Shown here: one piece after another, positions 20,825 through 56,233 of the stretch | Numbering within the stretch: the first letter of the stretch is position 1 | Layout: every line of letters starts with the position of its first letter | Assembly (NCBI GenBank): GCA_030390025.1 | Contig: CM059432.1 | Location: 34,908,001-34,972,000 of the forward strand | Length of the DNA stretch: 64,000 nt | DNA from: Squalus acanthias | Taxonomy: Eukaryota | Direction of reading: 5' to 3' | Translations under genes and position numbers: made by a program | The notes under the pieces: model-generated | What the model saw: the letters and a program-made list of their open reading frames with translations, nothing else | Databases searched by the model: none | Told to the model about the DNA's origin: nothing

Positions 20825-21059
20825 AAAACAGAAAATGCTGGAAATACTCAGCAGGTCAGGCAGCATCTGTGGGGAGAGAAACAGAGTTAACGTTTCAGGT
20901 CGATGACCTTTCGTCTACGTTCTGATGGAAGGTCATCGACCTGAAACGTTAACGCTGTTTCTCTCCCGACAGATGCTGCCTGACCTGCTGAGTATTTCCA
21001 GCATTTTCTGTTTGTATTTCAGATTTCCAGCATTAGCAGTATTTTGCTTTTGTATTAGC
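20825..21059. mobile_element. Penelope-derived fold-back mini-element
   Basis: ~90-bp inverted arms matching the 3' end of the 8945-9734 Penelope; 13-bp TSD GAATAAATAAATA. Confidence 0.85.
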
Positions 21060-21650
21060 GAATAAATAAATAGCTGGCATGGTGTATTACTGAGCCACAG
21101 GCAGCAGTTACTTTGACTATATGTGATCACTGACATACTTACACTGGGGCTTTATTATCCATTATATTGTCCCATCATCCTTTGTTTACACTCAGCAATT
21201 TTTGGCCTACAAACTAAATATCCCAGGTGATGTGGTCATTTTGAATGATCTGTTGTGACCCTGCAGAGGTCATCCTGTTCATTGTCCATTTTCTGGTCAG
21301 TAGCTGGGTCTGATCTCTAATACTCTTTATTCTGGTTCGGCTTCATTGATGCTTTATATTGAAGAGAAATATTTCACTGACGTGAATGGTGCTACGATGT
21401 TCTGATTGTTTAATCTAACTCTTTTTCTCTCTATCATATATTTCCTTATTTTCTCATTCTGTCCTTTGGTGGGTATCTCTCACTCATTCTCTCATTCTCT
21501 GTCGTCATCTCTCACACGCATCTTCACCCATTTTCTTTTTAGTCTATTTTGCTGAGATGCTTCTCTCTCCTCCTGTTACTGCTCATTCTCTCAGTCTGTC
21601 TTTCTGTGGCTTTTTCTGTGTGTCTTGGTCTCTCACGCACATTCTCGTTG

Positions 21651-22191
21651 GGGCTGAAAATCTGCGGGTTGTGATCCCAGCAGTTACAGACGGATTATAC
21701 CCCCTCCCAATGCCCTCCAGTGCTGATCCCACAGGAGTTTGCGGGCGAAGCAGGTTGGGACCTAATTACTTTGGGTCAGGCCGACACAAGCACCTGGGGG
21801 GAGGGGAGTTGGGGGTTGTCCAAACCCCTCCCTGTACTCCTGCCACGCAAGGGAGCCAATCTACAAAATTTTACCCAAAAAAAGTCTTTACATGGCTTAA
21901 AGCCCAGTTGTGGGGCCCAAATCCATCTTTGTGGAGACGGGTACACCTCCACTCACTCAACGCACCAGCCCTCACTAATACACCAAGCCCCACTGAAGCC
22001 GAAGGAGCAGCAACCCAGTGTAGGGACCCCCACACTTGGCTCTGGTCCCCCTTGGCCATCACTTGCCTTATCAAGAGTAACCAAAGGTTTTGCTTCTTAA
22101 AAGACAACCAGGAAACTCCCAGAAACAACGGAGCCTTGGCACAACCAGCGTAATGGTGGGATACAGGAGGAATCCCACAGGAATTTCAGGG
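21651..22191. mobile_element. Probable MITE
   Basis: Imperfect TIRs gggctgaaaatctgcggg / cccacaggaatttcagggc; no clean TSD. Confidence 0.45.
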
Positions 22192-22289
22192 CATTTACCT
22201 TTATCTGTTTCTGCGGGTCTCTCTCTCTCTTTTACATGCATCCCCACACATACTCTTTCTCTCCGTCTTTTTGTGAGTATCTATGACCG

Positions 22290-24103
22290 GGTTGGGGCGG
22301 GGGGAGCTCCGAGGTGGGCGGGAAACCCCGGGAGGCCGGGTTTCCCGCAGTCCCTGCTGACTTTAACGGCAGGGCCTGATTTGAATGTGAGGCCTCGGAT
22401 TCCCGCCCGCAGCCAGCCAGATTGAGAGGCTGGCTGGCTGCGGACGGGTAGGCCTCAGGAGCAAGGGGTCGATGCGGGGACAGGATCGCGGGAGGTGGAT
22501 CAGCAATCGGCAGGGGTCGGGGATCGGGGAGGGGGGGAGAGAGCATCGGCAGGGGTCGGAGATCGGGAGGGGGAGAGCATCGGCAGGGGTCGGGGATCGG
22601 GAGGGGGGAGAGCATCGGCAGGGGTCGGGATCGGGAGGGGAGAGAGCATCGGCAGGGGTCGGGGATCAGGAGGGGGGAGAGAGCATCGGCAGGGGTCGGG
22701 GATCCAGGGGGGGGGGCGGGGAGAGAGCATCGGCAGGGGTCGGGGATCGGGAGGAGGGAGAGAGCATCGGCAGGGGTCGGGGATCCGGGGGCGGGGGGAG
22801 AGAGCATCGGCAGGGGTCGGGGATCGGGAGGAGGGTGAGAGCATCGGCAGGGGTCGGGGATCGGTGGGGGGGAGAGAGCATCGTCAGGGGTCGGGGATCA
22901 GGAGGGGGTAGGGAGCATCGGCAGGGGTCGGGGATCAGGAGGGGGGAGGGAGCATCGGCAGGGGTCGGGGATCAGGAGGGGGTAGGGAGCATCGGCAGGG
23001 GTCGGGGATCAGGAGGGGGTAGGGAGCATCGGCAGGGGTCGGGGATCAGGAGGAGGGTGAGAGCATCGGCAGGGGTCGGGGATCAGGAGGAGGGTGAGAG
23101 CATCGGCAGGGGTCGGGGATCAGGATGGGGAGAGAGAGCATCGGCAGGGGTCGGGGATCAGGAGGAGGGTGAGAGCATCGGCAGGGGTCGGGGATCAGGA
23201 GGAGGGTGAGAGCATCGGTAGGGGTCGGGGATCAGGAGGGGGTAGGGAGCATCGGCAGGGGTCGGGGATCAGGAGGAGGGTGAGAGCATCGGCAGGGGTC
23301 GGGGATCAGGAGGGGGTAGGGAGCATCGGCAGGGGTCGGGGATCGGTGGGGGGAGGGAGCATCGGCAGGGGTCGGGGATCGGTGGGGGGGAGAGAGCATC
23401 GGCAGGGGTCGGGGATCAGGAGGGGGTAGGGAGCATCGGCAGGGGTCGGGGATCGGTGAGGGGAGGGAGCATCGGCAGGGGTCGGGGATCAGGAGGGGGG
23501 AGGGAGCATCGGCAGGGGTCGGGGATCGGAAGGGGGGAGAGAGCATCGGCAGGGGTCGGGGATCGGGGGGGGGAGAGAGGATCGGCAGGGGTCGGGGATC
23601 GGGAGGGGGGAGAGCATCGGCAGGGGTCAGGGAGCGGGAAGGGGAGGGTCGGCTGGGGATCGGGGTGGGGAGAGAGAGGATCGGGGCCGGCCCCATCATC
23701 ATCGTTGGTGGGGGGATGCCTGGGGGTGGGGGGTTTCCTGGGGGGTGATCGGAGGCCTCATGAGGGGGTCTCCAATTGTGGGGGGTGGGTATGGTTGGGA
23801 CCCTGGATCCAGGAGGTAGGTATAAAGCCGCTTACCTCCTGGATGCAGCAGTCCCCGCCTCTGTTTAACTGCTGGGTTTCAAGAATTGTGTGAAACTCGT
23901 CCACAGGCTGTTAAACACAAAATGGAGGGGAAAAAAGAGGCTGCCAGCCTCATTAAAATATTTAAATTGAGGTAACGCCCCCGGGAGCGGCAAAACCGGA
24001 AGTGAGCGGGTTGGAGGCGGCATCAGGTCGAGGATCCCATTTTTAACACTTTAACTGCCCCCACGCTCCACACCCACCCATTTTTTAGGAGAAAATTCCG
24101 GCC
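22290..24103. mobile_element. Harbinger-type non-autonomous element containing a G-rich minisatellite
   Basis: Right TIR-like AAAATTCCGGCC ending 24103. Shares blocks (cttacctc..atgcagcagtccc, cagcctcattaaaatatttaa) with 35270-35400. Left TIR not identified. Confidence 0.6.
22500..23660. repeat. G-rich ~33-bp minisatellite
   Basis: Unit gagcatcggcaggggtcggggatc(a/g)ggagggggga, ~35 copies. Confidence 0.95.
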
Positions 24104-24504
24104 TGTGTCTCTGTCACACACACAATCACACTATTACATTTTTACCCTCTATCTGTTTATTTCATTTTAGCACTGCCACACCATCTTATTCTCTCAGTTT
24201 CATCCCTTTTTATTATTCTCACTTTCCCTCATTCCCTTAATATCTTTGGTTCTCCGAAGGAGGAACACACTTCCCTTGTATCCTTCTTGTAATTACTGAA
24301 TGAATTATGGGTTTGATCCAATGCCCTACCACTGGGTGGCCCTCCAGTACATTGTACCACCGCAGCATCCTCACTCCCCGCCCCTTCTCATACCTGCTTC
24401 TCCCTCTTCCTATACAAGCATATATTTAGTCATTGCTGGATTTATTTGCACTCCCTCTATTGATCTATACTTTCTTTTTCATCTCGCTGTTTCCTCTCTT
24501 CCTT

Positions 24505-24940
24505 ACGGCAACACGGTGGCATAGTGGTTAGCACTGGTGCCTCACAGCGCCAGAGACCCGGGTTCGAATCTGACCTCGGGTGACTGTCTGTGTGGAGTTT
24601 GCACATTCTCCCCGTGTCTGCGTGGGTTTCCTCCGGGTGCTCCGGTTTCCTCCCACAGTCCAAAAATGTGCGGGTTAGGTTGATTTGGCTATGATAAATT
24701 GACCCTTAGTGTTAGGGGGGATTAAATATGTGGGGTTATGGGGATAGGATGGGATATGTTAGGGGGAATTAAATACGTGGGGTTACGGGGGTAGGGTGGG
24801 ATATGTGTACTGTGGGGATTAAAGCAGGGACAGGGTACTGGATTTGGATGATCAGCCATGATCGTATTGAATGGCGGAGCAGGCTCGACGGGCCGAATGG
24901 CCTACTCCTGCTCCTAGATTCTATGTTTCTATGTTTCTAT
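24505..24940 (+). mobile_element. tRNA-derived V-SINE (HE1-like)
   Basis: Near-identical to 12979-13412; ends in a (ttctatgt)n tail. Confidence 0.9.
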
Positions 24941-25394
24941 GTTTACTCTTCTTTGCTCACCCTTTCTTGCTCTCTTTCTTTATCCTCCTTGTTTTCTCTT
25001 TCTCTCTTCCTTGCTCTCTCCTTCTCTCTCTACCTTGCTCTCTCCTTCTCTCTCTACCTTGCTCTCTCGTCCCCTTGCTCATTGAAAAGAATCTAGGTGA
25101 GTTACTTTAATTAAAAAATGCTCTCCATGAGCAATTATGGTGGACTAATCCCTGTGGTAAATTGTGTGTTTTTCTGTCTCTCTCTTGTGTTGTTGTTAAT
25201 CGTCACATCAGATTTTTAGATATCAGAAGAACTTCCTTTGCCCATTTTCTAAGGATCCGTTTTAAAAAAGTCACATGATCACAAGCACTGTTAATGAGGA
25301 GGTCATCAAACTTCCTTTTACAGGAAAAATCCACCTATCAGAATCTTTCTTTTAAAAAGGACCAATTTCTCTTCCTCTTCTGAAGATGTCAACT

Positions 25395-25715
25395 CATATC
25401 TTTAGAAAACATTTGAAAGCCAATGAATTGTCGTTGCAGTCACTGTTGTACTGTAGGCAAATGCAAAAGCCAATTTGTGCAGAGCAGAAGGTCCCACAAA
25501 CAGCACTGAGATAAATGACCAATAATCTGCTTTTCTTGGTGTTGATTAAGGGATGAATGTTGGTCACGACATCTCTCCTGCTATTCTTCAAGTCGTGCCA
25601 TGTGATCTTTTACAGCCAGTTGAACAGATGGCGCCTCAGTTTAATGCCTCACCTGACAACACAGCTTAGTACTGCTCTGAAATGTTAGCCTACATTTTGT
25701 GATAAGTCTCAGGGC
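25395..25715 (-). mobile_element. Deu-domain SINE, degenerate
   Basis: Homology to the other SINE copies (cagtcactgttgta..., gtgccatgtgatcttttac). Confidence 0.65.
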
Positions 25716-26190
25716 TGTCTGACTGTTCCTTCCCGAACTCAGAGCTCAGACGTCTGACTGTTCCTTCCCGAACCCAGAGCTCGGACTGTCTGACTGGACT
25801 AAACCCAGAACTCAGACTGTCTGACTGGACTAAATCCAGAGCTCAGACTGTCTGACTGGACTAAACCCAGAGCTCAGACTGTCTGACTGGACTGAACCCA
25901 GAGCTCAGTCTGTCTGACTGGACTAAACCCAGAGCTCGGACTGTCTGACTGGACTAAACCCAGAGCTCGGACTGTCTGACTGGACTGAACCCAGAGCTCG
26001 CTCTGTCTGACTGGACTAAACCCAGAGCTCGGACTGTCTGACTGGACTGAACCCAGAGCTCGCTCTGTCTGACTGGACTAAACCCAGAGCTCGGACTGTC
26101 TGACTGGACTGAACCCAGAGCTCAGACTGTCTGACTGGCCTGAACCCAGAGCTCAGACGTCTGACTGGCCCTACCGAACCACAGAGCTTG
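25715..26190. repeat. 31-bp minisatellite, ~15 units
   Basis: Unit actgtctgactggactaaacccagagctcag. Confidence 0.95.
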
Positions 26191-26619
26191 GATAGCAATA
26201 TTGGGAGACTTAGTGATGACTGCACCATTGAATGTCAGGAGGGAGTCAGTTGGATTTTTTCTTGTAGCGAGTGGTCATTGGCCTAGGGCTGGATGCTGGT
26301 CAGCTCTAGCTTTAGGTTGACATGGGTTGCTTCATTATTGGAGGATTTAACGTAAACAACTTAACAAATGCCCTAAAATTAGAGCACAGATTAAACTAAT
26401 TACCTTAGAATATCAGCAGGCTGACTGTGGTGTTTGCAATATTCAATTCACACGCAGTGACGCTGAAACTGGTCTGAATATTATGTTAACAAAACTACTC
26501 AGAAATTAGCAGCTTTAACACTATGATAACCTGACACTACAAAGATGTTTTATTCAACATTTAAAACTCTTTTAAAACACTTTCCTTTCTAAGCTTCCAG
26601 GGTCCTCCCTTCTATTTTG

Positions 26620-27582
26620 AAGAGGGGCAGAGGAGATTTACCAGAATTACACCAGGGATAAAGAAAAGAAAGCAAGACTTGCATTTATATAGCACCTTTC
26701 ATGACCACTGGACGTCTCAAAGCGCTTTACAGCAAATGAAGTACTTTTAAATGTAGTCACAGTTGTAATGTAGGAAACACGGCAGCCAATTTGCACGCAG
26801 CAAGCTCCCACAAACAGCAATGTGATGATGACCAGATAATCTGTTTTAGTGATGTTGATTGAAGGATAAATATTGGCCAGGACACCGGGGATAACTCCCC
26901 TGCTGTTCTTTGAAATAGTGCCACGGGATCTTTTACATCCACCTGAGGGAGCAGACGGGGCCTTGGTTTAACATCTTATCCAAAAGACAGCACCTCCAAC
27001 AGTGCAGCACTCCCTCAGTACTGCACTGGAGTGTCAGTCTAGAATTGTGTGCTTAAGTCTCTGGAGCAGGACTTGATACCCACAACCTTCCTGACTCAGA
27101 GGCAAGGGTGCTACCAACTGAGCAATGGCTGACACAATGATGAGGGACTTTAGTTATGTGGAGCGACCAGAGAAGATGCAATTGATCTCCTTCGAGCAGA
27201 GAAGGTTAAGGGGAGATTTAATAGGAGGCGTTCAAAATTATGAAGGGTTTTGATAGAGAGAAACTGTTTCCACTGGCAGGAGGGTTGGTAATCAGAGGAC
27301 ACAGATTTAAAATAATTGGCAAAAGAACCAGAGGGGAGATGAGGAGAAAAATAATTTACGCAGCGAGTTATGATGATCTGGAATGCATTGGCTGAAAGGG
27401 TGGAAGCAGATTCTGAAGTAACATCCAGAAGGGAATTGGATATATACTTGAAAGGGAAACATTTGCAGGGCTATGGGGAAAGAGCGGGTGAGTGGGATTA
27501 ATTAGATAGCTCTCTCAAAGAGCCGGCACAGGCACAATGGGCTGAATGGCTTCCTTCTGTGTGGTAAGATTATATGATTCTA
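26620..27582 (+). mobile_element. CR1 3' fragment interrupted by a Deu SINE (26660-27137, - strand)
   Basis: agatttaccaga..ccagggat|gagggactttagttatg continuity across the SINE; CR1 tail near 27540-27582. Confidence 0.8.
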
Positions 27583-29193
27583 CGAAGATTGGAGCAACAT
27601 TGAAAGAATTTTTTTCATTCTTTGGGTGTGATCGTTGCTGGCAAAGCTGTCATTTATTGCGCATTCCTAGCTACCACTAAGCAGGTCGTGGAGATAGCAG
27701 CTTAATACAACTTGAATGTCTTGCTGGGATACTTCAGAGGCCATTAAGAGTCAATCATGTTGATGTAGGACTGGAGTCACATGTAGGCCAAACTGGGAAA
27801 TTGTTTTGCGAGCCTAAATCCACCTAAATTATCCGCACATTTCAACATTTGAAGGATCTGGATCAGTTACAGTACAGGATCCTTCCCAATGCTTTTCGCA
27901 TTTTCATGGCTGCACTACAATCTCTTTAAACAGACCACGTCCCTTGGAACCAAAACTTGGGTCAGCATTCTTCATCGTGTAACAGTTAACACAACCCAAC
28001 AATTAACTCCAAACTGTGGCAAATTGTTTACTGGACAATATATAAGATGTCCACTACCTTTTCCTGTTACCTCATAAGAACATAAGAAGATAAGAAATAA
28101 GAGCTGGAGTAGGCCATTCAAGCCTGCTCCGCCATTCAACATGATCATGGCTGATCTTCTACCTCAACTCCACTTTCCCACACTATCCCCATATCCCTTA
28201 ATTCCCTTCGTTCCCAAAAATTTATCGACCTCTGTCTTGAATATACTCAACAATGAGCATCCACAATCCTCTGGGGTAGAGAATTCCAAAGATTCACAAC
28301 CCTTTGAGTGAAGAAATTTCTCCAATTCTCAGTCCTAAATGGCCTACCCCTTATTCTGTGACTGTGACCCCATGTTCTAGATTCCCCAGTCAGGAGAAAC
28401 ATTTTCTCAGCATTAACCCTGTCAAGGCCCTTAAGAATTTTATATGTTTCAATTAAATCACCTCTCATTCTTCTAAACTCTAAGGAATATAGGCCTAGCC
28501 TACTCAACCTCTCCTCATAGGGCAATCCCCTCATCCCAGGAACCAGTCTAGTGAACCTTTGCTGCACTCCCTTTAAGGCAAGGATGTCTTTCCTTAGGTA
28601 AGGAGACCAGAACTGTACACAGTACTCCAGGTGTGGCCTCACCAGTGCCCTGTATAATTGTAAAAAGACTTCTTTACTCTTAGGGGTAAAAATTCAGTTG
28701 GTTGCGCCTCCCGTTAGCGCCTTAAGAGGGCGCTAATGGGGCGCAAAGCCGCTAACGCCCGGGCGCAGCGATGTTTGCGCCGCTCGGGAACTTAACTAGA
28801 GATTGTGCGGCGGCGCTAAAACTTACCGCTGCGACCACCTGCGCGCGCAGATTGTGACGTCATTCCATGGTGCAACGCCCTTGTGGCGCCCTGGAGCGGA
28901 AATTGAGTGGCGCCCCCTGCCTTACCGCCTGGCGCATCCAACGACTGGAAGACTGGAACGCTATCAATCGCTGTGGGGCTGGGGGGGGCGCTATTTAAAG
29001 GGGGCCTCTTCCTGTCTTTTTCTGTGGTCAACATTTTTGCACCACTCGTTCTGAGAGAGAGAGAGAGATTCGGAGAGAGCGAAAGAGAGACTTCTGCATT
29101 GACTCAACGCTTTGTGAGGTAGTTTTGCCTATTGATCCTAACTTCGCTAGTACTTTAGTTGCTGTCCTTCATTACTTTGCTTGCAAAGAGAAT

Positions 29194-30357
29194 ATGGGGG
29201 CTGCACTGATTGGGGGCGTCGTCCTGCTCCAGCTGAATCGGAGGATACAGAGACGCAGAGAGAGAGTGGCAATGATGGCCAGACGGAGGAGGGCCAACAG
29301 GCGTATGTACAGGAGAGCTTACCCTCCCAGGGTATATCGTGAACAGCTCTCCTACATCCATATGTCTGAGGAGCTGTGTTTGCGAAGGCTGCGATTCAGC
29401 AAGGAGGTGGTCACTGAGCTCTGCCACCTGCTGCTGCCAGATCTGCAGCCTCAACTGAGGTCCAGGACGTCTCTGTCGGTGGCAGTGAAGGTCACAGTGG
29501 CTCTCAACTTTTACGCTACTGGCTCATTTCAAGCTGCTGCTGGGGACCTCGCCAATATCTCCCAGTTCGCGGTGCATTGCTGCATCCGGCAGGTCACAAA
29601 TGCCCTCTTTAAAAGGAGACGAGAGTTCATCTCTTTCCCCATGACCCCAGACAAGCAGCGTGACCGCGCTCTGGGCTTTGCGAGGGTAGCGGGCTTCCCC
29701 ATGGTGCAGGGCGCCATTGACTGCACGCATGTGGCTTTGCGTGTTCCGCATGAGAATGCCGAGGAATTCCGGAACAGAAAGGGGTTCCATTCCTTGAATG
29801 TTCAGTTGGTCTGTGACCACAGACAGCTGATACTCGCTGTCAATGCCCACTATCCTGGCAGCTGCCACGATGCTTTTATCCTGCGCCAGACTACTGTGGC
29901 AGAACTTTTCGAGGCACCGCATCAGCCAGTTGGTTGGCTTCTCGGGGACAAGGGGTATGCATTGAGCACCTGGCTGATGACACCGCTCCGTACGCCCAAC
30001 ACCCCTGCTGAGCTGCGGTACAATGAGAGCCATCAAGCTACCAGGAACATAATTGAGCGCACAATCGGCGTGCTGAAGCAACGGTTCCGCTGTCTCGACC
30101 ATTCTGGAGGAGCCCTGCAGTACTCGCCTGAGCGAGTATCGAACTTCGTAGTCGTGTGCTGCATGTTGCATAACATGGCAATCCTCAGGACCCAGCCAAT
30201 GCCACCAGGCCTTGGAGCACCACCAGAGGAGGAGGAGGAGGAAGAGGAGGAAGAGGACGAGGAGGATGATCAGCAGCAGCACCAAGGCGGGAGGGCGGCC
30301 CACAATGGTCAAACTGCAAGGGCCGTCCGTCAACGGCTAATAGCAAGCCGCTTCTAG
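29194..30357 (+). CDS. Harbinger transposase (HARBI1-like DDE nuclease), 387 aa
   Basis: Uninterrupted ORF from ATG 29194 with [45 protein letters not shown] and an acidic tail; TATTTAAA at 28992. Confidence 0.93.
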   Translation: MGAALIGGVVLLQLNRRIQRRRERVAMMARRRRANRRMYRRAYPPRVYREQLSYIHMSEELCLRRLRFSKEVVTELCHLLLPDLQPQLRSRTSLSVAVKVTVALNFYATGSFQAAAGDLANISQFAVHCCIRQVTNALFKRRREFISFPMTPDKQRDRALGFARVAGFPMVQGAIDCTHVALRVPHENAEEFRNRKGFHSLNVQLVCDHRQLILAVNAHYPGSCHDAFILRQTTVAELFEAPHQPVGWLLGDKGYALSTWLMTPLRTPNTPAELRYNESHQATRNIIERTIGVLKQRFRCLDHSGGALQYSPERVSNFVVVCCMLHNMAILRTQPMPPGLGAPPEEEEEEEEEEDEEDDQQQHQGGRAAHNGQTARAVRQRLIASRF

Positions 30358-30616
30358 GGCCCCTGCCATTGCTAACAACATTAATGAACCCAGCACGCAA
30401 CCCCTAAGCCGGCCAAGGCACCAATAATTCCAACCACCAACCATGTATATTTTGAATACAGAAACTTATTTATTTTACAAACTCTGTGTGTGTCAATTCC
30501 TCATGACAAACTCATAGAAATAAACACAAAAAAACAGTCAATAACATAACTGGTTCTCACAACCTGGAGATAATGTCCAAAACACTAAACAAAAGTTGGA
30601 CCATGAACCTCGACCT

Positions 30617-31626: not shown

Positions 31627-31785
31627 CTGAAAGCAGGGAGGTACAAGAGTGGCTTTAGCGTGAGGACAGGGTGGCAGTAAGGGAGGAATAAGTGCAGCGA
31701 GTTAGCAAGTTGGATTGAAAGTGTCAAAGGCTGGTGTTGTGAGGGACAAGTGGAAGGACAGAGGACAAAAAGGTGATGACCTTAC

Positions 31786-31948
31786 CATTGCTGTCCAGAA
31801 CGGGGTCGGCGTCTCCAGTGGCGACGGGACCGATCACCCGGCTTGCCACAATCCTGTGGACGCGCTCCTCAAGATCGCTGAGGGGTTGCAGCTGAGGCCG
31901 CCCTCCACCTGTCCGTTGCTGCTGTCTCCGATTATGCGCCAGCTTGGC
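31786..31948 (-). CDS. Myb/SANT-like protein of element G, exon 2
   Basis: tttttcttacag acceptor, AKLAHNRRQQQRTGGG..., GTAAG donor; 163 nt. Confidence 0.85.
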
Positions 31949-32178
31949 CTGTAAGAAAAAGGACAGCATCTGAGTAAATATACAGCCATGGTCTTGCCTG
32001 ATGTGCCTCCCATAGGTGAATAGCCCTTACTGTATGCAAAGTGTGGAATGTGTGTGTGTGTTTCATGAAAGGGCCATAGGTGTTGGATGAGTGTTGTGCA
32101 TTGGGGTTTTAAGACCCTCTGGCCATAGAGTGAGGTTGAGATGGAGGGATGGAGAGGTATTGAGAAAAAGCCACTCAC

Positions 32179-40695: not shown

Positions 40696-40709
40696 ACTTT
40701 TTTATATTT

Positions 40710-42813: not shown

Positions 42814-42889
42814 GGAGAATTTAATTGACTTATCCCTTATCAATAACTTTAGTTTTCCTTACTTAACAAGCTCTTTTTTCCGTATGCAT

Positions 42890-44066: not shown

Positions 44067-44069
44067 ATT

Positions 44070-44920: not shown

Positions 44921-46449
44921 ATTTACCTGCATTTATAGCACATTTCATGACCTCAGAACCTCCCAAAGCGCTTTACAGCCATTGAAATACTTTGTTTGAA
45001 GTGTTGTATTGTAGGAACCAATTTGCACAATTAAAAAGGATGATGTATACTCAGATGTTTTCCTTTGCAGAACTAACTGTTCTTTCTGCACTTGTTGTCA
45101 ACTGATTAAAGTTCTCTGAAATGTATCAGTATGTACTGGCATGTCTTTTAATGAGGTTTACTGAAGTGACTAAACTGACCATTGCTTTAAGGTCAGCCAT
45201 GGATCAATAGCCCAGTGCTAATTTATATTGACTTAAACTTCCCTGCACAACAGGCAAAGGCTAAAGAGTACTATTCTACAATATAAAGTGAAATCAATAG
45301 CAGTATAATATTAGTAGACTTCAGGACAGTCTGATTAACCCTTTCATTATAGCTCAGCTTGTGTTTACTTATAGGAGTTTGTCTTTCTGGTCTTAAGGGA
45401 CTAGCCACATTAAACACTGCTCCACCTCAGCAGCAAGATGAATAATTTGTGCATTGCATGGAATAATATTCATGGTGCTAAAAAAGAAACAGATTTAATA
45501 TGAGCACCACCATGAGGGAACTGCAAATATATATACACAAACGTTTTGATATGTGTCCAACATGCAACTTTGTGTCTTGCACTTACAACAGAAAGGAAGG
45601 CAGTCATTTCCTGCTGGTATCGTAGAAGCTCCCCAGCAAGAGAAAATACCCACGAACAGAGCTCAGGATGTACCTAAAAGCAATAAACCTTATATAGACC
45701 TTAGGATGTACCTATTTTTAGCAATAATACGTTATGACCTTCAAGGGACAGGCCACATTTCCACACCACTCCTCCCTTGCAGCAGAATAATACAATGTAT
45801 ATTACATGGTATAACGCTTAGAAACAGCACATAGGAGATTGAAGAACCATAGACATTTATAGGCCATTCAGCCCATCATGCCTTTGCTAGAGCAATCCAA
45901 AACCAACCCCAAATCAACACACTTCCTCCATAGCCCTGCATCGTTCTCTGCTTCAAATATTTATCCACATTTTATCTTTAAAAATACAATAGTCTCTGCC
46001 TCGACCACTTACTGGGGCAAAGCATTCCATGCTCCAATAAATGTAAAGAAATTTCTCCTCACTCACTTAGTGATAATTCTAAAATGATGACCTTTTGTCA
46101 CTAACTCCCCAACCAGAAGAAATAGTCTTCCCCATTCACTCTTCACAGTTTGAAAAAACTCTATTAAATCTCCTTCTCTGCTCAATTGGACACAGTCCCT
46201 GTTGATTACTATTGTTAGAGAAACCAGGTTGGAGCTGTTGTCTCTGCTTGGAATTACTTTTACAGATGTTTTTAGAGGGAATGATGCTCATAGACAACAC
46301 ACACGACAATGCGCAGTCTGTGGGAGACCTCATGTTACAGTTGTTCAGTCAGTTTGTGGGGAAATTAGACCCTGGGTCTTCCCTAAATTCCTAACAATGA
46401 TCTTGTTTTGAAGCTCAGCTAAAAGGCATTGCCTCTTCCATGACAAAGT

Positions 46450-47178
46450 ATTTATAGCACAGAAATAAGCCATTCGACCCAAATGGTCCATGCCGGTGTT
46501 TATGCTCCACGCAAACCTCCTCCCACCCTTCTTCACCTAACCCCATCAATGTATCCTTCTATTCCTTTCTCCCTCATGTGCTTATCTGGCTTCCTCTTAA
46601 ATGCATCAATGCTATTTGCCTCAACCAGTCCTTGTGGTGGCGATTCCACATTCTAACCACTCTCTGGGTAAAGAAGTTTCTCCTGAATTCCCTATTGGAT
46701 TTATTAGTGACTATCTTATATTTATGGCCCCTAGTTCTGGTCTTCCCCACAAGTAGAAACGTCTTCTCTACATCTACCCTATCAAAGCCTTTCATAATCT
46801 GAAAGACCTCGATCAGGTCACCCCTCAGTCTTCTCTTTTCTGGAGAAAAAAGCGCCAGCCTGTTCAATCTTTCCTGATAGGTATAACCTCTCAGTTCTGG
46901 TATCATTCTAGTAAATCTTTTTTGCACCTTCTCCAGTGCCTCTATGTCTTTTTATAATATGGAGACCAGAACTGTTCACACTACTCCAAGTGTGGTCTAA
47001 CCAAGGTTCTATACAAGTTTTACATTACGTCTCTGCTTTTCAATTCTATCCCTCTAGAAATGAACCATAATGCTTTGTTTGCTGTTTTATGGCCTTATTA
47101 ACCTGTGTCGCTACTTTTAGTGATTTGTGTATCTGTACCACCAGATCCCTCTGTTCCTCTACCCCATTTAGACACTTA
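46450..47178 (-). mobile_element. CR1 LINE 3' fragment
   Basis: QKRFTRMIPEL..RRLRGDLIEVF..NFFTQRVV. Confidence 0.9.
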
Positions 47179-47179
47179 C

Positions 47180-47727
47180 AGGGAAAAATTGGGTCGCACT
47201 CCCTTTGGGGCGCTAACTTCGCCGGGGCGCTACTTTTAGCGTCCCGAAAAAGTTACCGCCCCCGCGCCTGAAATTCAATGGTAGCACCCCAAGCAGGAGG
47301 CGGGTTACTACTGGGAGCGTTCCCCCTCCCTCTTGGGGCGCTCCAGCCCAATATCGCAGTGTTATGTGCCGCAGCACCACGCGCGCAGGCATGTCGCGCC
47401 GCGGTACTGCAGGCCTTCCTCCCCTTATTAAAGGGGAGGGGCCTTGCGCGGCGCAAACTGGGGCCCTGCTGGGCCACCAGGGAGCGGGGTGCCGGCAAAA
47501 GAGCCCGGCACTCAAGAGGAGTGCCAGGCTGCCTGATCGCGGCCGGCACCCCGCTCCCTGGTGGCAGAGCGGGCAGGTGCTGGCAGGCGGCCAGCAAAAA
47601 AAATGGCCGCCCGACACCTCCCCTTTAAATATCGCCGCCCCGGCCACACGTACTCCCCCCTGACCCTGTCGGATATAGCGTCCGGCGGTACGTCAGGGGG
47701 CATGACCCAAGTTTGCGGCCAGGGCAC
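47180..47727. mobile_element. Harbinger MITE with G-family end, truncated
   Basis: Homologous to 39143-39620; second TIR missing. Confidence 0.8.
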
Positions 47728-47949
47728 TACAGATAGATGTATCTATTAGAAGACTAGTACTAATCATGATTATCTCATTTGATGTAACCAGTACATCTTT
47801 GGAGATTTGAGCTGATTTGTTGACATTCTACAAATATCGCCTGTTTCAACAGATTCTGCAAAACTGTCTTTTAACTACAAAATAGAATCCTGAATATAAA
47901 ATGGAGACTTTAATTAAACCTATCCTGCTAGTGTTGCTAATAGCCATTT

Positions 47950-49300
47950 CACCCCAGGAAACAATCTAGTGAACCTTCATAGCACCCCCTCTAAGGCAAG
48001 TATATCCTTCCTTAGGTAAGGAGATCAAAACTGTGCACAGTACTCCAGGTGTGGTCTCACCAAAGCCCTATATAATTGCAGCAAGACTTCCTTACTATTA
48101 TACTCCAACCCCCTTGCAATAAAGGCCAACATACCATTTGCCATCCTAATTGCTTGCTGTACCTGCATGTTAACTTTCAGTGATTCGTGTACAAGGACCC
48201 ACAAATCCTCTGCATACCAACATGTCTTTCACCTTTTAAAAAATATTCTGCTTTTCCATTCTTCCTACCAAAGTGGATAATTTCACACTTGCCCACATTA
48301 TAATCTGCCACCTTCTTGCCCAATCACTTAACTGGTCTATATCCCTTTACAGTCTCGTTGCATCCTCCTCACAGCTTACTTTTCCTCCTAGCTTTGTATC
48401 ATCAGTTACACTCAGTTCCCTCATCTAAGTCATTGATATAGGTTGTAAATAGCTGAGGCCCAAGCACTGATCCTTGCAGCACCCCACTAGTTACACCCTG
48501 CCATCCCAAAAATGATCCATTTATTCCTATTCTCTTTTTTCTGTCCGTTACCCAATCCTCAATCCATGCCAATATATTACCCCCAATCCCATGAGCACTA
48601 ATCTTGTGTAACAACTGTTTGTGTGGCACCTTATTGAATGCTTTCTGAAAATCCAAATATACTACATCCACTTGTTCTCCCTTATCTACCCTGCTAGTTA
48701 CACTCTCAGAAAACTCTAATAGATTTGTTAAACATGATTTCCCTTTCATAAAACCGTGTTGACTCTGCCTAATCATATTGTGATTTTCCAAGTGCCCTGC
48801 TACCACGTCCTTAATAATAGATTCTAGCATTTTTCCTACTATTGATGCCAGACTAACTTTCTTGAACAGTGGGGTTACATCTGCTAATTTCCAATCCACG
48901 GGGACCATTATAGAATCTAGGGAATTCTGGAAGATCAAAACCAATGCATCCACTATCTCTGCAGCCGCCTCTTTCAAAACCCTAGGGTGTAGGTCATCAG
49001 GCCCAGGGGATTTGTTGGCTTTTAGACCCATTAATTTCTCCAATGCTATTTCTTTACTAATATTAATTACTTTAAGTTCCTTGGTTAACTACAATTTCTG
49101 GTGTGTTCTTTGTGTCTTCTACAGTGAAGACAGACACAAAATATTTGTTGAACGTCTTGGCCATTTCCTTATTCCCCATTATAATTTCTCCTGTCTTTGC
49201 CTCTAAGGGACCAGTGTTTGCTTTCACTAATCTCTTCCTTTTTGCATACTTATAAAAGCTCTTACAATTTGTTTTTATATTTCTTGCTAGTTTACTCTAT
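47950..49300 (-). mobile_element. CR1 LINE ORF2 fragment
   Basis: [42 protein letters not shown]. Confidence 0.9.
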
Positions 49301-49871
49301 TTAGATTTATCTGTACAGCGGCCCTCACTTCCTTTTTTTAATATTACACATTCGGACAAAGAAAATCATAGACACATTGCACAGCAAGCAAAGTTGTAAA
49401 GCAAATTAACCCCCAAATAATACCATATCCTAACAAATTATCCCCTGAAGTTGAAAGATCCTCCAGCACTCATTATCTATCTTATGAATAATTCTGACTA
49501 AGTAGTATTTCTGTATATTCATAAAAATAAGTACAAGGTGAGCAAAGCTTGCCAATGAGATCAAATTTGCAGTAAGGAACTTGGCAGGGCAGTACTTCCG
49601 CATACCACTTTGACCCACCACTGACACTGACCCAAATCCCAAGAATAGAGTTGTTTAATATTCGGGGTGGAAGCCCGCAAATGTAGTGGTTCTCACCCTG
49701 CTAAAGTTGTGGATCTCGTAGTGCCAAGGTCTTAATCGGGCCTAAAACATAATCATCAGGGAATAGAGGGGCAGCTTGGTTAAGGTATTACCTCTTCATT
49801 TTTATAAACAGAAAATGCTGGAAATCCTCAGCAGGTCAAACACCATCTGTAGAGAGAGAAACCGAGTTAAC

Positions 49872-51746
49872 AGGCTTGATTTTGCCAGTGCTCAGAGTGC
49901 GGGTTTGGAGGTGGGTCAGCTGTAAAAATAGCAAAGATTGACAGCGGGTAGGGTCTGTCAGCAGAGAACTGACCTGACACCAAGTGCGGGGGGACAATTG
50001 AGATCATTAAATGGCTTGTTAAGAGCCAATTTAATGGTATTTTGAGACTTCCTTCCAATTTTACGTGCTCCCCCACAGGTTACCCGCTGCTCGTGAGTTG
50101 AGTCTGCTCTGATGTTTCCGATAAGCAGAGAACTGCAGAAGTGGTGTAAAGGATGCCATGTTGCAGATGGTCAGTTTCAGAGCGCAGAAACTGTTGGTTA
50201 CTGCATTTGTAAGACATATAGGAGTAAAAATTCGGTTGCTTTGCGCCTCCAGTAAGTGCCCTCTTAGGGCGCTAACGGGGCGCAAAGCAACTAGCGCCCG
50301 GGCGCGGCGCCGCCCATGCCTCCCGCGAAATTCAGCGGGAGGTTAGCGGCAGCGGTAACCGGTAGCGCCCCGCGGTGCTGTGCCGCTGGCGATGACGTCA
50401 TCGCCATGCGCAGCGCCCCACTCGCTCCCCGGCCGCGATCTTCGGGAGCGCCCCCTGACTTACCACCGGACGCTATGTCTGACGGGGTCAGGGGGGCCTA
50501 CCTGTGGCCGGGGAGGTGCTATTTAAAGGCGAGGTGCGGAGCGGCCATTTTTGTTGCTGGCCACCTGCCAGCACCTGCCTGCGCTCCCGTCCCCAGGCTC
50601 CTGAACCGGCCCCCCCGCAGAGTGCCGGCTGCGCTCCAAGAGCCCGGTACTTCTCTTGAGTGCCGGGCTCTTTTGCCGGCACTCCCGATCCCCGGGGGCC
50701 CTTTAAGAAGGGGAGGAAGGCCTGCAATATCGCGGCGCGACGTGCGATATTCCCTCGCAGCGCCACAAGAGGGATGTGGGGTGCTTCCAGTAGCGCCCCA
50801 CTTCCCTCTTGGAGTGCTACCACTCAATTTCCGTCGCGGGGGTGATAATTTTTCCGGGGCGCTAAAAGTAGCGGCCCGGCGAAGTTAGCGCCCCAAAGGG
50901 GGTGCTACTCAATTTTTAGCCCATAGAGATTTCTTTAGCTTGCAAGTGTTTGTCCAATGTCACCTCATTGGAACAACCCCTCTCACCATTGACAGATCGC
51001 TTCTGTCATCTCACCTGCAGCTGACATCTATTGCAGTAACATCGGTGCCCTAGAAACTATCTCACCTTGCTCCGCTGATTCCTTCCACGCTCCACCCCAA
51101 CACCAACATCACTAGGCACACCAGCAGCACCAACAACAACACCAACCTTCTCCAACATCACCTGATGCTGCACAGGACATCAGCCCCTGACAACATTTCT
51201 GCCCGGGAGGCCAGCGATGGCATCACCATGGCCAGATTTACATCACTTGACGCTGTAAACCCTGGCTGCCACATGATGCGCCAGTTTGACACCCTCCCAC
51301 ACCAGCACCGTAAAGCATCCCTTTAATGTCCAAGCCATTCCATGCACACACATCACTATAGTGGTGGGGGGCGGGGGTGGTGGTCACTGGAACTCAGTAA
51401 GAAACTTCTTATGGAGGGAGTCATTGGAGAGCCTGGGTGCAACCGTCCACCTTTGTGCAGTGCTTGTGAGTATTTGCAGCACCTCAATGCTGTCAAACAC
51501 TGACAGAAAAACTGTCAAACTCAATGTGACCGTGGTCCCTTTAAGGAAACCGGCTGATGACACGTCATGAAATGACTTCATCAGACCCGCTTCCTGTTAA
51601 TTGGCCAGGAAGCCCACAGGGCGGGCTTAACAAGGGCCAATCAAGGGAAAATCCCTTTGACAGAGTGGCTGCAGCCGGGAGCGGGACCGGAAACCCGCAA
51701 ACAGCTATCCCGCCACCATTCCGACACCGCTGAGAAAATCCAGCCC
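49872..51746. mobile_element. Non-autonomous Harbinger E
   Basis: AGGCTTGATTTT...AAAATCCAGCCC, TSD AAC; internal blocks related to 13447-15165 in reverse orientation. Confidence 0.85.
50221..50922. mobile_element. Harbinger MITE F nested in E
   Basis: GGAGTAAAAATT...AATTTTTAGCCC, TSD ATA; left end resembles the left end of element G. Confidence 0.9.
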
Positions 51747-52706
51747 AACGTTTCAGGTCAGAATTGGAAAATGTTGCAGATGTAACAGGTTTTAAGCAAG
51801 CACAGAGGCAGGGAAGGGGGAGGAAAGAACAAAAGGGAAGGTCTGTGCTAGGATGGAAGGTAAGTGTGATTTAAATGACAAAAGGGGTGACAGTGCAAGG
51901 CAAATGGGGCTGGTAATGGGATAAGTAAAGAAACAAAAGTTGAGTCTCGAGGAGCTGAAAATGCCAACAGCAGAATAATTACCAGCACTTGCTGTCTGAA
52001 AAAATGTGAGTGGTGGTTATGGTCTGAAATTGTTGAGCTCGTTGTTGAATCCGGAAGGCTGTAAAGTGCCCAATCAAAAGATAAGGTGCTGTTCCTCAAA
52101 CTTCCATTGAACTTCATTGGAACAGTGTAGGAGGCCGAGGGCAGAGAGGTCAGAGTGGGAGTGGCGCGGAGAATTTACATGGCAATTGACTGGAAACACA
52201 GGGTCATGCTTGCAGTCTGAACGGAGGTGTTCAACAAAGCGATCACCCAATCTGCGTTTGGTCTCCCTAGTGTAGAAGGGACCGCATCATGAGCAGTGAA
52301 TACAGTATATTAAATTTAATGAAGTACAAATAAATCACTGTTTCACGCTCCTAGACTTAGCTGTGCTTGAAAGGATGCTCGCTTTATTTGGCTTTTTTTT
52401 GTTTGCATTTAAATTGATATTTCACAAAGGGCACTGGACAGTGGGAAGGGAGGAGGTGCAAGGGTTTTTCCTTGTTTTTCCTTGTTTTTCCTCGTTGTTC
52501 CTTGCTTGGGGCCTTCTATAGGCCTATAAAGGGACCTAGGCCTGTTCTCAGCAGATATAGGTCCTGCAGACCCTTTTAGGGTGCTTTGGATGGATATGCT
52601 GGAGAAGTTCAGGAATGCTCCCAAACACGCCTCCAAGATCGCTCAATTCCTAGGCTTTCAGCTTTAATGGAGGAGTCTTTAATCAGTGTCTTTTCATATT
52701 CCATAG

Positions 52707-53044
52707 CTGCAGCAGAAGCGGAAAAAAAGAATGAGATTCCTACTGTCTCCGCGCAAGTTCCTGCTGATGGATCCAAGAAAGAGGTCAAAAAGAAGGAGGG
52801 GCAGAAGAAGGACGGCGCTAAAGGGGACAAGGATGGATCAAAGGGCGAAACAAAGGATCAAGCCAATAAAAAAGGAGCAGGACAGAAAGGGGCAGGACAG
52901 AAAGGGGCAGGACAGAAAGGGGCAGGAGCAAAAGGTGGTGGGAAGTCCGATGGTAAGGGAGCTGGTAATGCCAAAAGTGGTGGGAAGGCAGGAGCGAATG
53001 CCAAGGGAGGACCAAAGAAAGCTCCTGCTAAAAAATCTTCATAG
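52707..53044 (+). CDS. tmie: TMIE terminal coding exon, Lys/Gly/Ala-rich C-terminal tail
   Basis: Acceptor ttttcatattccatag ends 52706. A phase-1 join with the 17984 donor gives in-frame (A)AAEAEKKNEIPTVSAQV...KKAPAKKSS-TAG. A basic tail after the PPLNELTE motif is as expected for TMIE. Confidence 0.85.
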
Positions 53045-53703: not shown

Positions 53704-54184
53704 GGAACCAGGCACAACCAGTTCAATCAGGTTCCTCTCAGCCTCCATATTAACCAATTAAAAAACAACTTGCATTTATATAGTGCAGAGGAATGGGAGG
53801 TTGGAAATGGTGAGCATTGGGCTCAGAAGTTGCAGTTGAGTGGTCTGGACCTCAGATGTGGACATGCTGGGGCTGTGGAAGGAGGGTCAAGAGAACAGGT
53901 GGTGGGTCTGATGGAAGGGATGAGTCTGTTGAGGACTCGGGCAGAGATGGAGAGAAGCTATGAAGGGTTGTGAGGTCAGAGCTGAGGAAGGGAGCGAACT
54001 GGGGCTGGAGGAGGCTGAGGCAGGTGAACAAATTTTAGTGACAAAGGAATCATCTGGCATCAGATGTGAGAGCTGTGGAGGGAACTTGGAGGAGGCAATT
54101 TGTACTGGAGAAAAGGAGTTTCTGATTACACTCAACCCTTAATGATGATGATCTTGGAGTCATAAGATGACAGAGACAGACAAT

Positions 54185-54830
54185 GGCCTAATATTTCAAT
54201 GGCACTACACCTGTTTTACAGGCACAAAACAGGCACCTAAAGGTCCAATATGGCTGGTGATGTGCACGCGTTCATTCCATGCTGGAAGTGCGTCACCCGT
54301 TATATTGGACACTTAAGTGCCTGTTTTACACCTGTTTGCATCTGTAACTGGTTTTCGGCCCATTGCATATGCAAATCTGGAGTCTAACGCCTGTTTCAGG
54401 TCTTTGCCAAATTGGTCTGTGAATGACCGCGATATGCAGCGCTCACGCTGCGGTCAGCTTCTTCAAGCGTTCGGCTGTCAAACCAGCGATCCTGAAAGGG
54501 ACCACTGGAGGCTGCCATCTGAAAGGTAGGTTCATGTTTTTTACTTACTTTAACATGGAGGCGGGAGAAGCAGGTCCCCCTCACGATTGCCTCCCCTCCC
54601 CAGGATTCTTATGGGTCTGGCGGCTGGCGTCCAAACCAGTCGATTTTGCTGACCTCCGCCCCCCCCCCTCCCCCCATGGTGCCTCTGGGGCTGCGAATGG
54701 TGCCCGCAGCTCATTGGTACTATCCTAATGAGCAGGCAGACCAAATCCCCATGGTCCTGCTGCCATCCTCGTTAAGTGCGTGCGCTGCACCAGGATCACA
54801 CCCCAATCAGACGCAAATCAATTTCTAAGT
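54185..54830. mobile_element. Probable degenerate Harbinger-type MITE
   Basis: ggcctaatattt start and aatttctaagtc end; GC-rich body; weak TIR match. Confidence 0.35.
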
Positions 54831-56011
54831 CAATATTTTTCAAGTGATCAAGCCAAACCAGGTCAGTGATACGCTATGTGGGCTCAAGCCCGTGATCTTT
54901 GGATTTGGAGATTTGAAGATTGGTGTTGTACCTGAAGAACAAGGGAGTGGAAGACCATAACGTTTCTGACAGAGATGAGAACATCAGAATTGTAGGTAAG
55001 GGAGCTGTTGAGTGGATTGATAAGGGCAGGAGCAGAATGCCAGGTAGAGGCAAGAAAAGAGGGAGCTGGGAACTGAAAGTGAGCCAGGAGGTAGTCCTCA
55101 GGGTGGGAGAAGGTAAGCTGGATGGATCTCTTTAGGAGCCAAGTCAGTTCCAAGGTCGATTGACAAGGAAGATTGTAACCGAATCGAACTCTGTTAGATT
55201 TAGCAATCTGATACCTCAACCATGGAGCTACGCAGTACTCCAGGTCCCTGTTGACAATTGATCAGCAAGCCTGGTTCATTGATGGACTTGCTATCTATTA
55301 AAAGGAATGGATGGAAAATCACATGCTGCGGGAGTCGATATCCTGATTTGGGCTCACGGTGGACGGTAGAATCGACCTTCATTTTGTCTCCGACTTTCTT
55401 AGCCGTTTGGCGTACTTTTCTTTAAATGTTGTGAAAACAGCCTCGTCGTTTTGTTGCTACATTGCTTCTTTTTATTTACTTGTAATGACGATGAGGTAAA
55501 TTCACCTTCGTCCATAACTCAGGTTTTGTCATCTGGGGCCCAGGGAGTAGGCCCGTGTCTTGGTGAGTTCTACAAGTGCACTGATATAAATGTAGAACCA
55601 ACTGTAAATAAACACCAACAGGTACCATCAGTGTTGAATCATTGCCTTATAGATGCACAGTATAGACAACACACTCTACAAATGAAGCCCTTCCTCATCT
55701 TCAGATTTAGACTATATGGAGAGTTAGGCATGTGTCCTTGTAGTTTTGCAAACTCTATTAACTAACCTTTGGCTATAACACATCAATTATGTCAATGGTT
55801 TGGAGTAATGGATGTTGTGATGCTATAGAATGAGGATTTATAGATGTTCCCTTACTTCAGTGATAGACCAATACTACGGGCCGCACATTTCATCGCCACT
55901 GGCACATCTCTCTATCCCACGGGAGAAAGTTGTCAGGCACCAAAAGCCAGTGAACGGCTCCCAGTTTACCCATTGTGTGCCTGGCAGTTAGTCATAATGA
56001 GGAAAAGGGTA

Positions 56012-56233
56012 ATAAAAAGAGAAAATGCTGGAAATATTCAGCAGGTAAGGCAGTATCTGTGGAGAGAGTTAACGTTTCAGGTCGATGACCTTTCTCCAGT
56101 TCTGACGAAAGGTCACAGACCTGAAACATTAACTCTGTTTCTCTCTCCACAGAGGCTGCTTGACCTGCTGAGTATTTGCAGCATTTTCTCTTTTTATTTC
56201 AGATTTCCAGCATCCGCAGTATTTTGCTTTTGT
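56012..56233. mobile_element. Penelope-derived fold-back mini-element with hammerhead motif (56097-56137)
   Basis: Inverted arms; CTGACGA-AAGGTC-ACA-GACCT-GAAAC; 15-bp TSD ATGAGGAAAAGGGTA/ATGAGGAGAGGGGTA. Confidence 0.85.

What the first reader, a model, noticed from the sequence alone, without database searches (positions are those of the whole stretch)
20825..56233. Family of ~230-bp fold-back Penelope mini-elements that invert at a hammerhead ribozyme core
Seen: three independent inserts (20825-21059, 43093-43313, 56012-56233), each with its own 13-15 bp TSD. Each is a long hairpin whose arms are the 3' ~90 nt of the GIY-YIG Penelope at 8945-9734. In all three the inversion centre falls in or next to the CTGANGA/stem II part of the hammerhead motif, and the junctions differ, so the copies look independently formed. 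One arm keeps the longer tail. The core is intact or one change away on + in two copies (CTGACGA at 56102; CTGATGG at 20922) and truncated on the opposite arm. Known: Penelope-like elements carry minimal hammerheads and form inverted terminal segments. Inference: the ribozyme site sets the 5' end of the template RNA or the template-switch point, producing a protein-free, ribozyme-bounded class of mobile hairpin. Two copies lie in the tmie intron and would form dsRNA in its pre-mRNA.
Basis: partly seen in the sequence, partly recalled or inferred. Interest (0 to 1): 0.8.

Follow-up and report, generated by a model that had tools for sequence, protein, structure and literature searches.

The report
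Back-to-back Penelope stubs at hammerhead edge
These three 220-235-base DNA hairpins are short insertions of a known jumping gene (Penelope-like) in a cartilaginous-fish genome, each likely built anew from two back-to-back copies of one end of its RNA, and their halves meet 24-36 bases before the predicted ribozyme cut, so self-cutting likely did not make them.

Summary
The three hairpins, their 13-15 bp target duplications, the one-sided tail and the Penelope source are real. All six arm ends lie 24-36 nt 5' of the predicted minimal-hammerhead cut, and all six arms read through that cut. Ribozyme cleavage therefore did not set these ends. Each hairpin's two arms share private alleles and the junctions differ. 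In four public runs, contig depth over the copy-1 junction is 0.005-0.05% of arm depth (a rough measure). The hairpins look formed anew at each insertion, not copied as a mobile unit, and the predicted hairpin RNA buries the ribozyme. The layout (inverted pseudo-LTR, direct pseudo-LTR, 30-40 nt tail, TSD) is the published Penelope-like insertion in its shortest, ORF-less form. Most likely mechanism (inferred): both target nicks prime cDNA at the two known RT start sites, the short cDNAs run out near the RNA 5' end just ahead of the hammerhead, and they are joined head to head. Other junctions in public contigs have one arm stopping 3' of the cut, so the inversion is not always at the core. This scan has noted the same pattern many times on other DNA. 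Ordinary architecture; the clustering of ends is a modest mechanistic clue.

The parts
20825..21059 (.). m1 fold-back: tail-less antisense arm 20825-20915, 3 unassigned bases, sense arm with tail 20919-21059
   Evidence: (I24)
20812..20824 (+). m1 left TSD (13 bp, contains AATAAA); right copy 21060-21072
43093..43313 (.). m2 fold-back of a second subfamily: antisense arm 43093-43182, sense arm with tail from 43182 (or 43190) to 43313
43079..43092 (+). m2 left TSD (14 bp); right copy 43314-43327
56012..56233 (.). m3 fold-back: antisense arm 56012-56094, sense arm with tail 56095-56233, CTTT microhomology at the junction
55997..56011 (+). m3 left TSD (15 bp, 2 mismatches to the right copy 56234-56248)
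   Evidence: read by eye
56098..56134 (+). minimal hammerhead remnant in m3 sense arm (helix I 5' strand, CTGACGA 56102-56108, helix II, GAAAC, predicted cut 56130/56131; helix III palindrome broken)
8945..9734 (+). Pen1: 5'-truncated tail-less Penelope-like copy; Cys-rich linker 9039-9065, GIY-YIG domain, in-frame TGA at 9390, stop at 9444; 14-bp TSD 8931-8944 / 9735-9748
9635..9671 (+). minimal hammerhead motif of Pen1: CTGATGA 9639-9645, helix II 9646-9659, GAAACGTT 9660-9667, predicted cut 9667/9668
   Evidence: architecture as in PMC4209133
42748..42813 (-). 66-bp plain tail-bearing stub with 15-bp TSD; ends about 36 nt 3' of the cut, no inversion
49803..52464 (-). Pen2: second 5'-truncated tail-less copy, helix II deleted, split by a 1875-bp insert (49872-51746)
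17835..53041 (+). host gene tmie: coding exon about 17835-17984, alternative terminal coding stretch 20214-20318, long-form terminal coding exon about 52707-53041

Best explanation
Each hairpin is a TSD-flanked, ORF-less insertion of two back-to-back copies of the pseudo-LTR of a Penelope-like retrotransposon, likely formed anew at each landing when both nicks of one staggered target cut prime reverse transcription on uncleaved element RNA and the two short cDNAs likely run out near the RNA's 5' end, just ahead of the hammerhead. Shown: anatomy, TSDs, one-sided tail, end positions, read-through of the predicted cut, element-private alleles. From published work on another element (PAc): both strands are cut and extended, RT starts internally at two sites that bound the tail, and uncleaved RNA is the template. 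Inferred: that the bottom-strand nick primes at the tail end and the top-strand nick at the tail-less site; that a transcript 5' end near -32 to -41 limits arm length; that the two cDNA 3' ends are joined with 0-4 nt microhomology or a few filler bases. The product is likely a dead stub, not a new mobile unit.
For: (1) Outer ends fall at two fixed places, +64 to +69 and +101 to +109 from the cut, and plain copies use the same two places (Pen1 +67; the 66-bp stub at the tail end); PAc RT starts at two sites bounding the tail, on either strand (PMC11167929). (2) At 7 of 7 assessable outer ends the flank continues the element sequence for 1-5 nt, as expected of primer-template pairing (by eye; m1 tail end and Pen2 not assessable; both sides are AT-rich, so modest). 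(3) 6 of 6 arms span the predicted cut; PAc hammerhead mutants insert normally. (4) Of 14 shared minority columns, 7 are private to the two arms of one element (5 in m2, 1 in m1, 1 in m3) and none unites all left or all right arms. (5) Contig depth at junction base 20918 is 0.017, 0.051, 0.005 and 0.023% of arm depth in 4 of 4 runs. (6) 15 different inversion joints are readable. (7) The layout equals Pen2a_Av without its ORF (PMC3846280). (8) m3 arms carry different helix II loops, and the right one shares two bases with Pen1, which suits two templates.
Against: No transcript start was mapped; the only hint is a pyrimidine-flanked A at -33 that fits a recalled initiator consensus, which is weak and is also helix I and a plausible splice acceptor. 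Ends are spread over at least 12 nt, and loose-end consensuses continue 13-19 nt past the reference limit, so many copies run further 5'. The tail-bearing arm is the longer at the junction in 2 or 3 of 3 copies, which snap-back predicts and two-ended priming does not require. Only three hairpins were read whole; no genome was held. Contig depth is a rough figure, contigs break at palindromes, and the runs may be of other species. Shared alleles between arms could also come from later gene conversion. PAc belongs to the Poseidon clade, this element looks Neptune-like.
Confidence: 0.5

Rival explanations
1. Snap-back: one cDNA is primed at the tail end, its 3' end folds onto itself near the hammerhead and is extended on its own strand, and the hairpin is resolved at the tail-less site.
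For: Tail-bearing arm reaches 5, 9 (or 0) and 12 nt further 5' than its partner; CTTT microhomology in m3; arms share private alleles. Craig et al. suggest the tail arises from endonuclease resolution of an intermediate (PMC8557442).
Against: The tail-less end is also the end of plain copies and shows pairing with the target end. Joints with 30-75 nt asymmetry exist. m3 arms differ at helix II loop positions that vary in the population.
Confidence: 0.2
2. Two-ended priming as above, but the cDNAs stop because RT stalls or switches at the folded (possibly dimerised or protein-bound) hammerhead inside a longer RNA, not at the RNA's 5' end.
For: All six ends lie in the core or helix I 5' strand; helix II is stable in the isolated arm (pair probability 0.76-0.97); Pen2 has lost helix II between two GAC repeats; one recurring joint ends at -13, in the helix II loop, in 15 contigs over 4 runs.
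Against: The ends lie after RT has crossed helix III and helix II, whereas structure-induced stops usually fall on the 3' side of a helix (general knowledge). Long copies read through the motif (Pen1, Pen2).
Confidence: 0.2
3. One reading: a protein-free, ribozyme-bounded hairpin that is transcribed and retroposed as a unit.
For: Similar size (221-235 bp) and centre (-29.5, -29.5, -30); tandem non-autonomous PLE derivatives exist (retrozymes; bioRxiv 10.64898/2026.07.22.740005). One joint recurs across runs. Small subfamilies are not excluded.
Against: Three different junctions; element-private alleles on both arms; m1 junction at most 0.07% of arm depth; forcing the hammerhead helices costs 19.5 and 41.6 kcal/mol in the m3 and m1 hairpin RNA.
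Confidence: 0.05
4. [quoted passage not shown]
For: One joint (kind not stated, one run, depth 34) has an end exactly at +1; PLE hammerheads can cleave in vitro.
Against: 0 of 9 arm or copy ends in the window lie at +1; 6 of 6 hairpin arms include the site and 22-36 nt upstream; 0 of 15 readable inversion joints end at +1; no RNA-seq ends at the PAc cut.
Confidence: 0.04

Closest known systems
EN+ Penelope-like insertions with inverted pLTR and one-sided tail (Adineta Pen2a_Av, PMC3846280; scheme in PMC8557442)
   Same: Head-to-head inverted plus direct pLTR, optional 30-40 bp tail on one end, whole unit inside one TSD, junction at the pLTR 5' end, solo pLTRs noted.
   Different: Here no ORF or second direct pLTR lies between the arms, TSDs are 13-15 bp rather than 8-10 bp, and the junction is mapped against the hammerhead.
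Minimal hammerheads of PLEs, including opposite-strand pairs (Cervera and de la Pena 2014, PMC4209133)
   Same: Type I minimal core, bulged base before helix II, palindromic helix III, pairs on opposite strands near each other in Schistosoma.
   Different: Their pairs are about 100-700 bp apart; here the two cores touch and one is truncated. No shark example was in the parts I read.
PAc (Poseidon of Anolis carolinensis) in vitro (PMC11167929)
   Same: Two RT start sites bounding the tail about 110 nt past the hammerhead, both strands cut and extended, AT-rich targets, cleavage not needed.
   Different: Different clade (this element has a Cys-rich linker, Neptune-like); the paper does not treat inverted products in the parts I read.
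Non-LTR retrozymes (bioRxiv 10.64898/2026.07.22.740005; PMC7229834)
   Same: Non-coding, PLE-derived, hammerhead-bearing.
   Different: Retrozymes are head-to-tail tandems with a complete ribozyme per unit; these are single head-to-head units with damaged, sequestered cores.
L1 twin priming (PMC2837659 abstract; otherwise recalled)
   Same: Inverted, truncated insertion within one TSD from two primers.
   Different: L1 twin priming copies two non-overlapping parts of one RNA; here both arms copy the same 90 nt.

Membership tests
EN+ Penelope-like element (parent) | C-terminal GIY-YIG endonuclease linked to a PLE RT | tested here: met
   PF01541 at cut-off; homologues at up to 74% identity in sharks and rays, longer ones with RT PF00078. 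The RT itself is truncated away in the window.
EN+ Penelope-like element (parent) | Minimal hammerhead in the pLTR | tested here: met
   Core pattern at 9639-9667 with helix II and palindromic ACGT. No Rfam match.
EN+ Penelope-like element (parent) | Self-cleavage of that hammerhead | not testable with these tools
   Needs an in vitro dimer assay.
Neptune or Nematis clade | Cys-rich motif between RT and EN | tested here: met
   CxxxxCxxC at 9039-9065; criterion from PMC3846280 and PMC8557442.
Neptune or Nematis clade | RT phylogeny placing it in the clade | not tested
   No RT in the window; no tree built.
Inverted-pLTR PLE insertion | Inverted 5'-truncated copy head-to-head with a direct copy, inside one TSD | tested here: met
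   3 of 3 hairpins.
Inverted-pLTR PLE insertion | 30-40 bp tail on one end only | tested here: met
   33-42 nt extra on the right arm of all three.
Non-LTR retrozyme | Head-to-tail tandem units, each with a complete hammerhead | tested here: not met
   Single head-to-head units, no complete core; definition.
Non-LTR retrozyme | Circular or self-cleaved RNA | not testable with these tools
   Only contigs of a guessed RNA run were laid.
Replicating non-autonomous family (MITE- or SINE-like) | Copies share the internal junction and arm-specific alleles | tested here: not met
   Junctions differ, alleles are element-private; m1 junction not amplified.
MITE (DNA transposon) | Short fixed-length TSD and equal terminal inverted repeats | tested here: not met
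   TSDs of 13, 14 and 15 bp and a one-sided tail.

The most novel reading that the evidence does not exclude
The minimal hammerhead of this element works less as a knife than as a coupler: its palindromic helix III pairs two uncleaved pLTR copies (two RNAs, or both ends of one tandem RNA), so that a dimeric RT-endonuclease copies one from each target nick and halts at the paired core. That would explain in one step the inverted ends of Penelope-like elements and why hairpin junctions sit at the core.
Probability: 0.1. Interest if true: 0.72.

Novelty: new member of a known kind. Interest (0 to 1): 0.28.

Why it matters
How Penelope-like elements make their inverted ends, and what their hammerhead is for, are open questions (PMC8557442, PMC11167929). 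These stubs are abundant (3 in 64 kb here) and each records two priming sites and two stop points, so a genome census could test two-ended priming and map the RNA 5' end without bench work. They also show that in vivo templates can be uncleaved. For annotation: they look like MITEs or miRNA hairpins (one search gives sub-threshold miRNA hits) but are neither, and intronic copies would be perfect dsRNA substrates. As a new class of mobile element the finding does not hold.

Tried and rejected
Whole-genome census: no genome is held. Collection scans for more copies: 0 matches in metagenomes with the first pattern, 0 in viral contigs, 1 each in metagenomes and prokaryote genomes with the second (long prokaryote-type contigs, not examined, taken as chance). 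Raw-read run X21 gave only 22 laid reads, too few. A-to-I editing: the guessed RNA run X15 shows A>G 14 and T>C 38 places against 16 and 45 in DNA run X4; contigs cannot show editing or expression, so no conclusion. Depth along Pen1 is about 3-4 times higher over the last 60 nt than over the endonuclease in X1, but the tool warns that contig depth cannot rank parts, and the 3' UTR is poorly covered, so I do not use it. Spliced template (the sequence before the core resembles a 3' splice site, and the D. virilis intron ends at helix I): rejected, since m3 and one joint keep the upstream bases and the letters between arms share no exon-like sequence. Helix I covariation in m2 (GAGTC against GACTC): ambiguous, as the same bases read equally well as a re-copied piece of the left arm. 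Extra cap-derived G (lead from e1-8639869): 1 of 5 inversion joints with known filler before the right arm shows a lone G; too few. In one search I listed five from>to joints of table 5c as opposite-strand; their kind is not stated and their order matches 'goes back' rows, so I dropped them and two tandem rows from the inversion count (22 readable, 15 kept, of 56 found). Literature: 8 searches found no paper on ORF-less hairpin PLE stubs in sharks or on junctions at the hammerhead; subscription journals, Repbase and Dfam were not searchable and supplements were not read.
Full report
Observation. The three inserts are at the stated places. m1 (20825-21059) and m2 (43093-43313) have exact 13- and 14-bp target duplications; m3 (56012-56233) has a 15-bp duplication with two mismatches (by eye). 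Each is an antisense arm of 83-91 nt joined head to head to a sense arm that runs 33-42 nt further at its 3' end. m3 folds at -122.6 kcal/mol, z -16. The arms are 79-91% identical to the 3' end of Pen1 (8945-9734), which encodes a GIY-YIG domain whose best relatives include shark and ray proteins at up to 74% identity and longer proteins with an RT domain. A CxxxxCxxC linker at 9039-9065 points to the Neptune or Nematis type (criterion in PMC3846280); no tree was built. BLAST finds two more clear copies: a 66-bp plain stub with the tail and a 15-bp TSD (42748-42813) and Pen2 (49803-52464, minus strand), split by a 1875-bp insert. Two weak hits near 18942 and 60374 were viewed and left unassigned.

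Host context. The gene is tmie. tblastn places a coding exon at about 17835-17984, the long-form last coding exon at about 52707-53041 and an alternative terminal stretch at 20214-20318. So m1 and m2 are intronic in the long form, m3 is not, and m1 may be in the 3' UTR of the short form.

The hammerhead. Pen1 has CTGATGA at 9639, a bulged A, helix II, then GAAACGTT, with helix I formed by AGTT before the core and AACT after the triplet. This is the minimal type I motif of Cervera and de la Pena (PMC4209133; I read parts 1-2 of 4: abstract, results, discussion), which lacks a real helix III and needs a dimer. By standard hammerhead numbering (established knowledge) the cut is GUU|A at 9667/9668. 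Rfam has no match; the core pattern occurs 3 times against 0.56 expected, one being an outside hit. Activity is untested.

Where the arms end. Counting from the cut, tail-less arms end at -27, -25 and -24, tail-bearing arms at -32, -34 (or -25) and -36 (to -41 with microhomology). The centres are -29.5, -29.5 and -30, or within 7.5 nt on the alternative readings; chance 0.013 to 0.0003 under three uniform nulls. The clustering is real in this window. But it is at the front edge of the ribozyme, not at its cut: all six arms contain the cut site. A cleaved template would give arms starting at +1. Frangieh et al. [quoted passage not shown]

Formed anew or copied as a unit. In the alignment of six arms, Pen1 and the end of Pen2, 14 columns or states are shared by a minority; 7 are private to the two arms of one element and none marks left against right arms. 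Laying four contig runs on m1's left arm, junction and 27 nt of right arm gave summed depth 7-14 million on the arm and 560-7,074 at junction base 20918, that is 0.005-0.051%. This measure is rough: depth is one figure per contig, contigs break at palindromes, a filter drops records, and the runs may be of other species. Still, an amplified m1-type junction would be expected to show. m2 and m3 junctions were not tested this way. In the whole-hairpin RNA of m1 and m3 the hammerhead helices have pair probability 0.0 and cost 41.6 and 19.5 kcal/mol to enforce, so a transcribed hairpin is predicted to be ribozyme-dead.

Other junctions. One search found 56 joints, of which 22 can be read; 15 are inversions and 7 were set aside (tandem or kind not stated). 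In 15 of 15, one arm stops 3' of the cut (+4 to +43). The partner reaches -28 to -32 in 11 (forced by the reference design) and -13, -24, -27, -27 in the 4 unforced ones (the last three at the limit of the reference). This sample favours short arms, so it gives no frequencies, but it shows that inversion is not confined to the core. In one search, 15 of 237 joints were shown; the 4 opposite-strand ones each have an end at 9619-9656 (-49 to -12; two trimmed by Pen1's own alleles) and none has both ends in the ORF. One joint of unstated kind has an end exactly at +1, so a cleaved minority is not excluded.

Mechanism. The outer ends fall at +64 to +69 (allowing for deletions) and +101 to +109, and plain copies use the same two places. 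PAc RT starts at two sites that bound the tail, on both strands of a doubly cut target, and the protein is predicted to be a dimer. At 7 of 7 assessable outer ends the target continues the element sequence for 1-5 nt (by eye). I therefore favour two-ended priming: each nick primes one short cDNA, and the two are joined at their 3' ends. What limits their length is inferred. A transcript start near -32 to -41 is the simplest cause, since the pLTR holds the start of the transcript and ORF (PMC3846280; parts 1-3 of 5 read), and all four tail-bearing copies here are short while both long copies are tail-less. Against this: no start was mapped, and loose-end consensuses continue well upstream. Snap-back of a single cDNA fits the longer tail-bearing arm in 2-3 of 3 copies and remains open (0.2), as does stalling at the folded ribozyme (0.2). 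My first reading was a stall or switch at helix II; earlier notes of this scan moved me to two-ended priming and a transcript-start limit, which I then checked only as far as described here.

Comparison. The layout is Pen2a_Av without its ORF: inverted pLTR, direct pLTR, optional 31-bp tail, one TSD; Craig et al. give it as the general PLE scheme (PMC8557442; passages only). Opposite-strand hammerhead pairs 100-700 bp apart were noted in Schistosoma. Retrozymes are tandem units with complete cores (bioRxiv 10.64898/2026.07.22.740005; part 1 of 5 and passages); the hairpins fail that test. Kojima 2018 (PMC5753468; passages) lists no hairpin PLE form. PMC7229834 and PMC2837659 were seen as search listings only. 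Eight searches found no paper that maps PLE inversion points to the hammerhead, but the library lacks most subscription journals and repeat databases, and no supplements were read.

Verdict. Real, non-random, and a minimal form of a known insertion type; not a new mobile class and not made by ribozyme cleavage. The residual interest is the pile-up of ends at the hammerhead's front edge, which makes the insertion mechanism testable by census. The scan has met this pattern before (97 notes in at least 12 genomes held my search words). Interest 0.28.

Noticed in passing
window 20812-20824 and 21060-21072: m1 inserted into, and duplicated, an AATAAA-containing target about 500 nt after an alternative terminal coding stretch of tmie (20214-20318); it may sit at the poly(A) signal of the short form.
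   Followed up: no
window 49872-51746: 1875-bp insert with imperfect terminal inverted repeats and a 3-bp duplication (AAC/GTT) lies in Pen2 exactly at the predicted hammerhead cut; probably a DNA transposon, position may be chance.
   Followed up: partly
window 51747-51775 (minus strand): Pen2 has lost helix II of the hammerhead by a 14-nt deletion between two GAC repeats that flank the hairpin.
   Followed up: partly
window 9625-9638: The bases before the hammerhead core form a pyrimidine tract ending in CAG, like a 3' splice site at helix I; D. virilis Penelope has its intron end at the same place. A second acceptor-like stretch followed by ATG and a short open frame into the tail lies about 18 nt after the cut in the hairpin arms.
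   Followed up: partly
joint 20868/20901: One inversion joint recurs in 15 contigs over all four runs and has CATC-like microhomology between the short arm and the helix II loop; hot spot or small subfamily.
   Followed up: no
window 564-5889 and 6672-10357: Two long copies of another repeat face each other at about 80% complementarity (I1-I3, I5, I13); Pen1 is inserted in the second.
   Followed up: no
window 16011-17732, 22491-23684, 25709-26235, 39950-40708, 58274-58528: Several minisatellite arrays (29-30, 37, 31, 28 and about 61 nt units); the 29-30 nt array appears to grow out of a dispersed repeat end near 16006 (D11).
   Followed up: no
window 38732-38807: A separate short hairpin of about 75 nt unrelated to the Penelope arms.
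   Followed up: no
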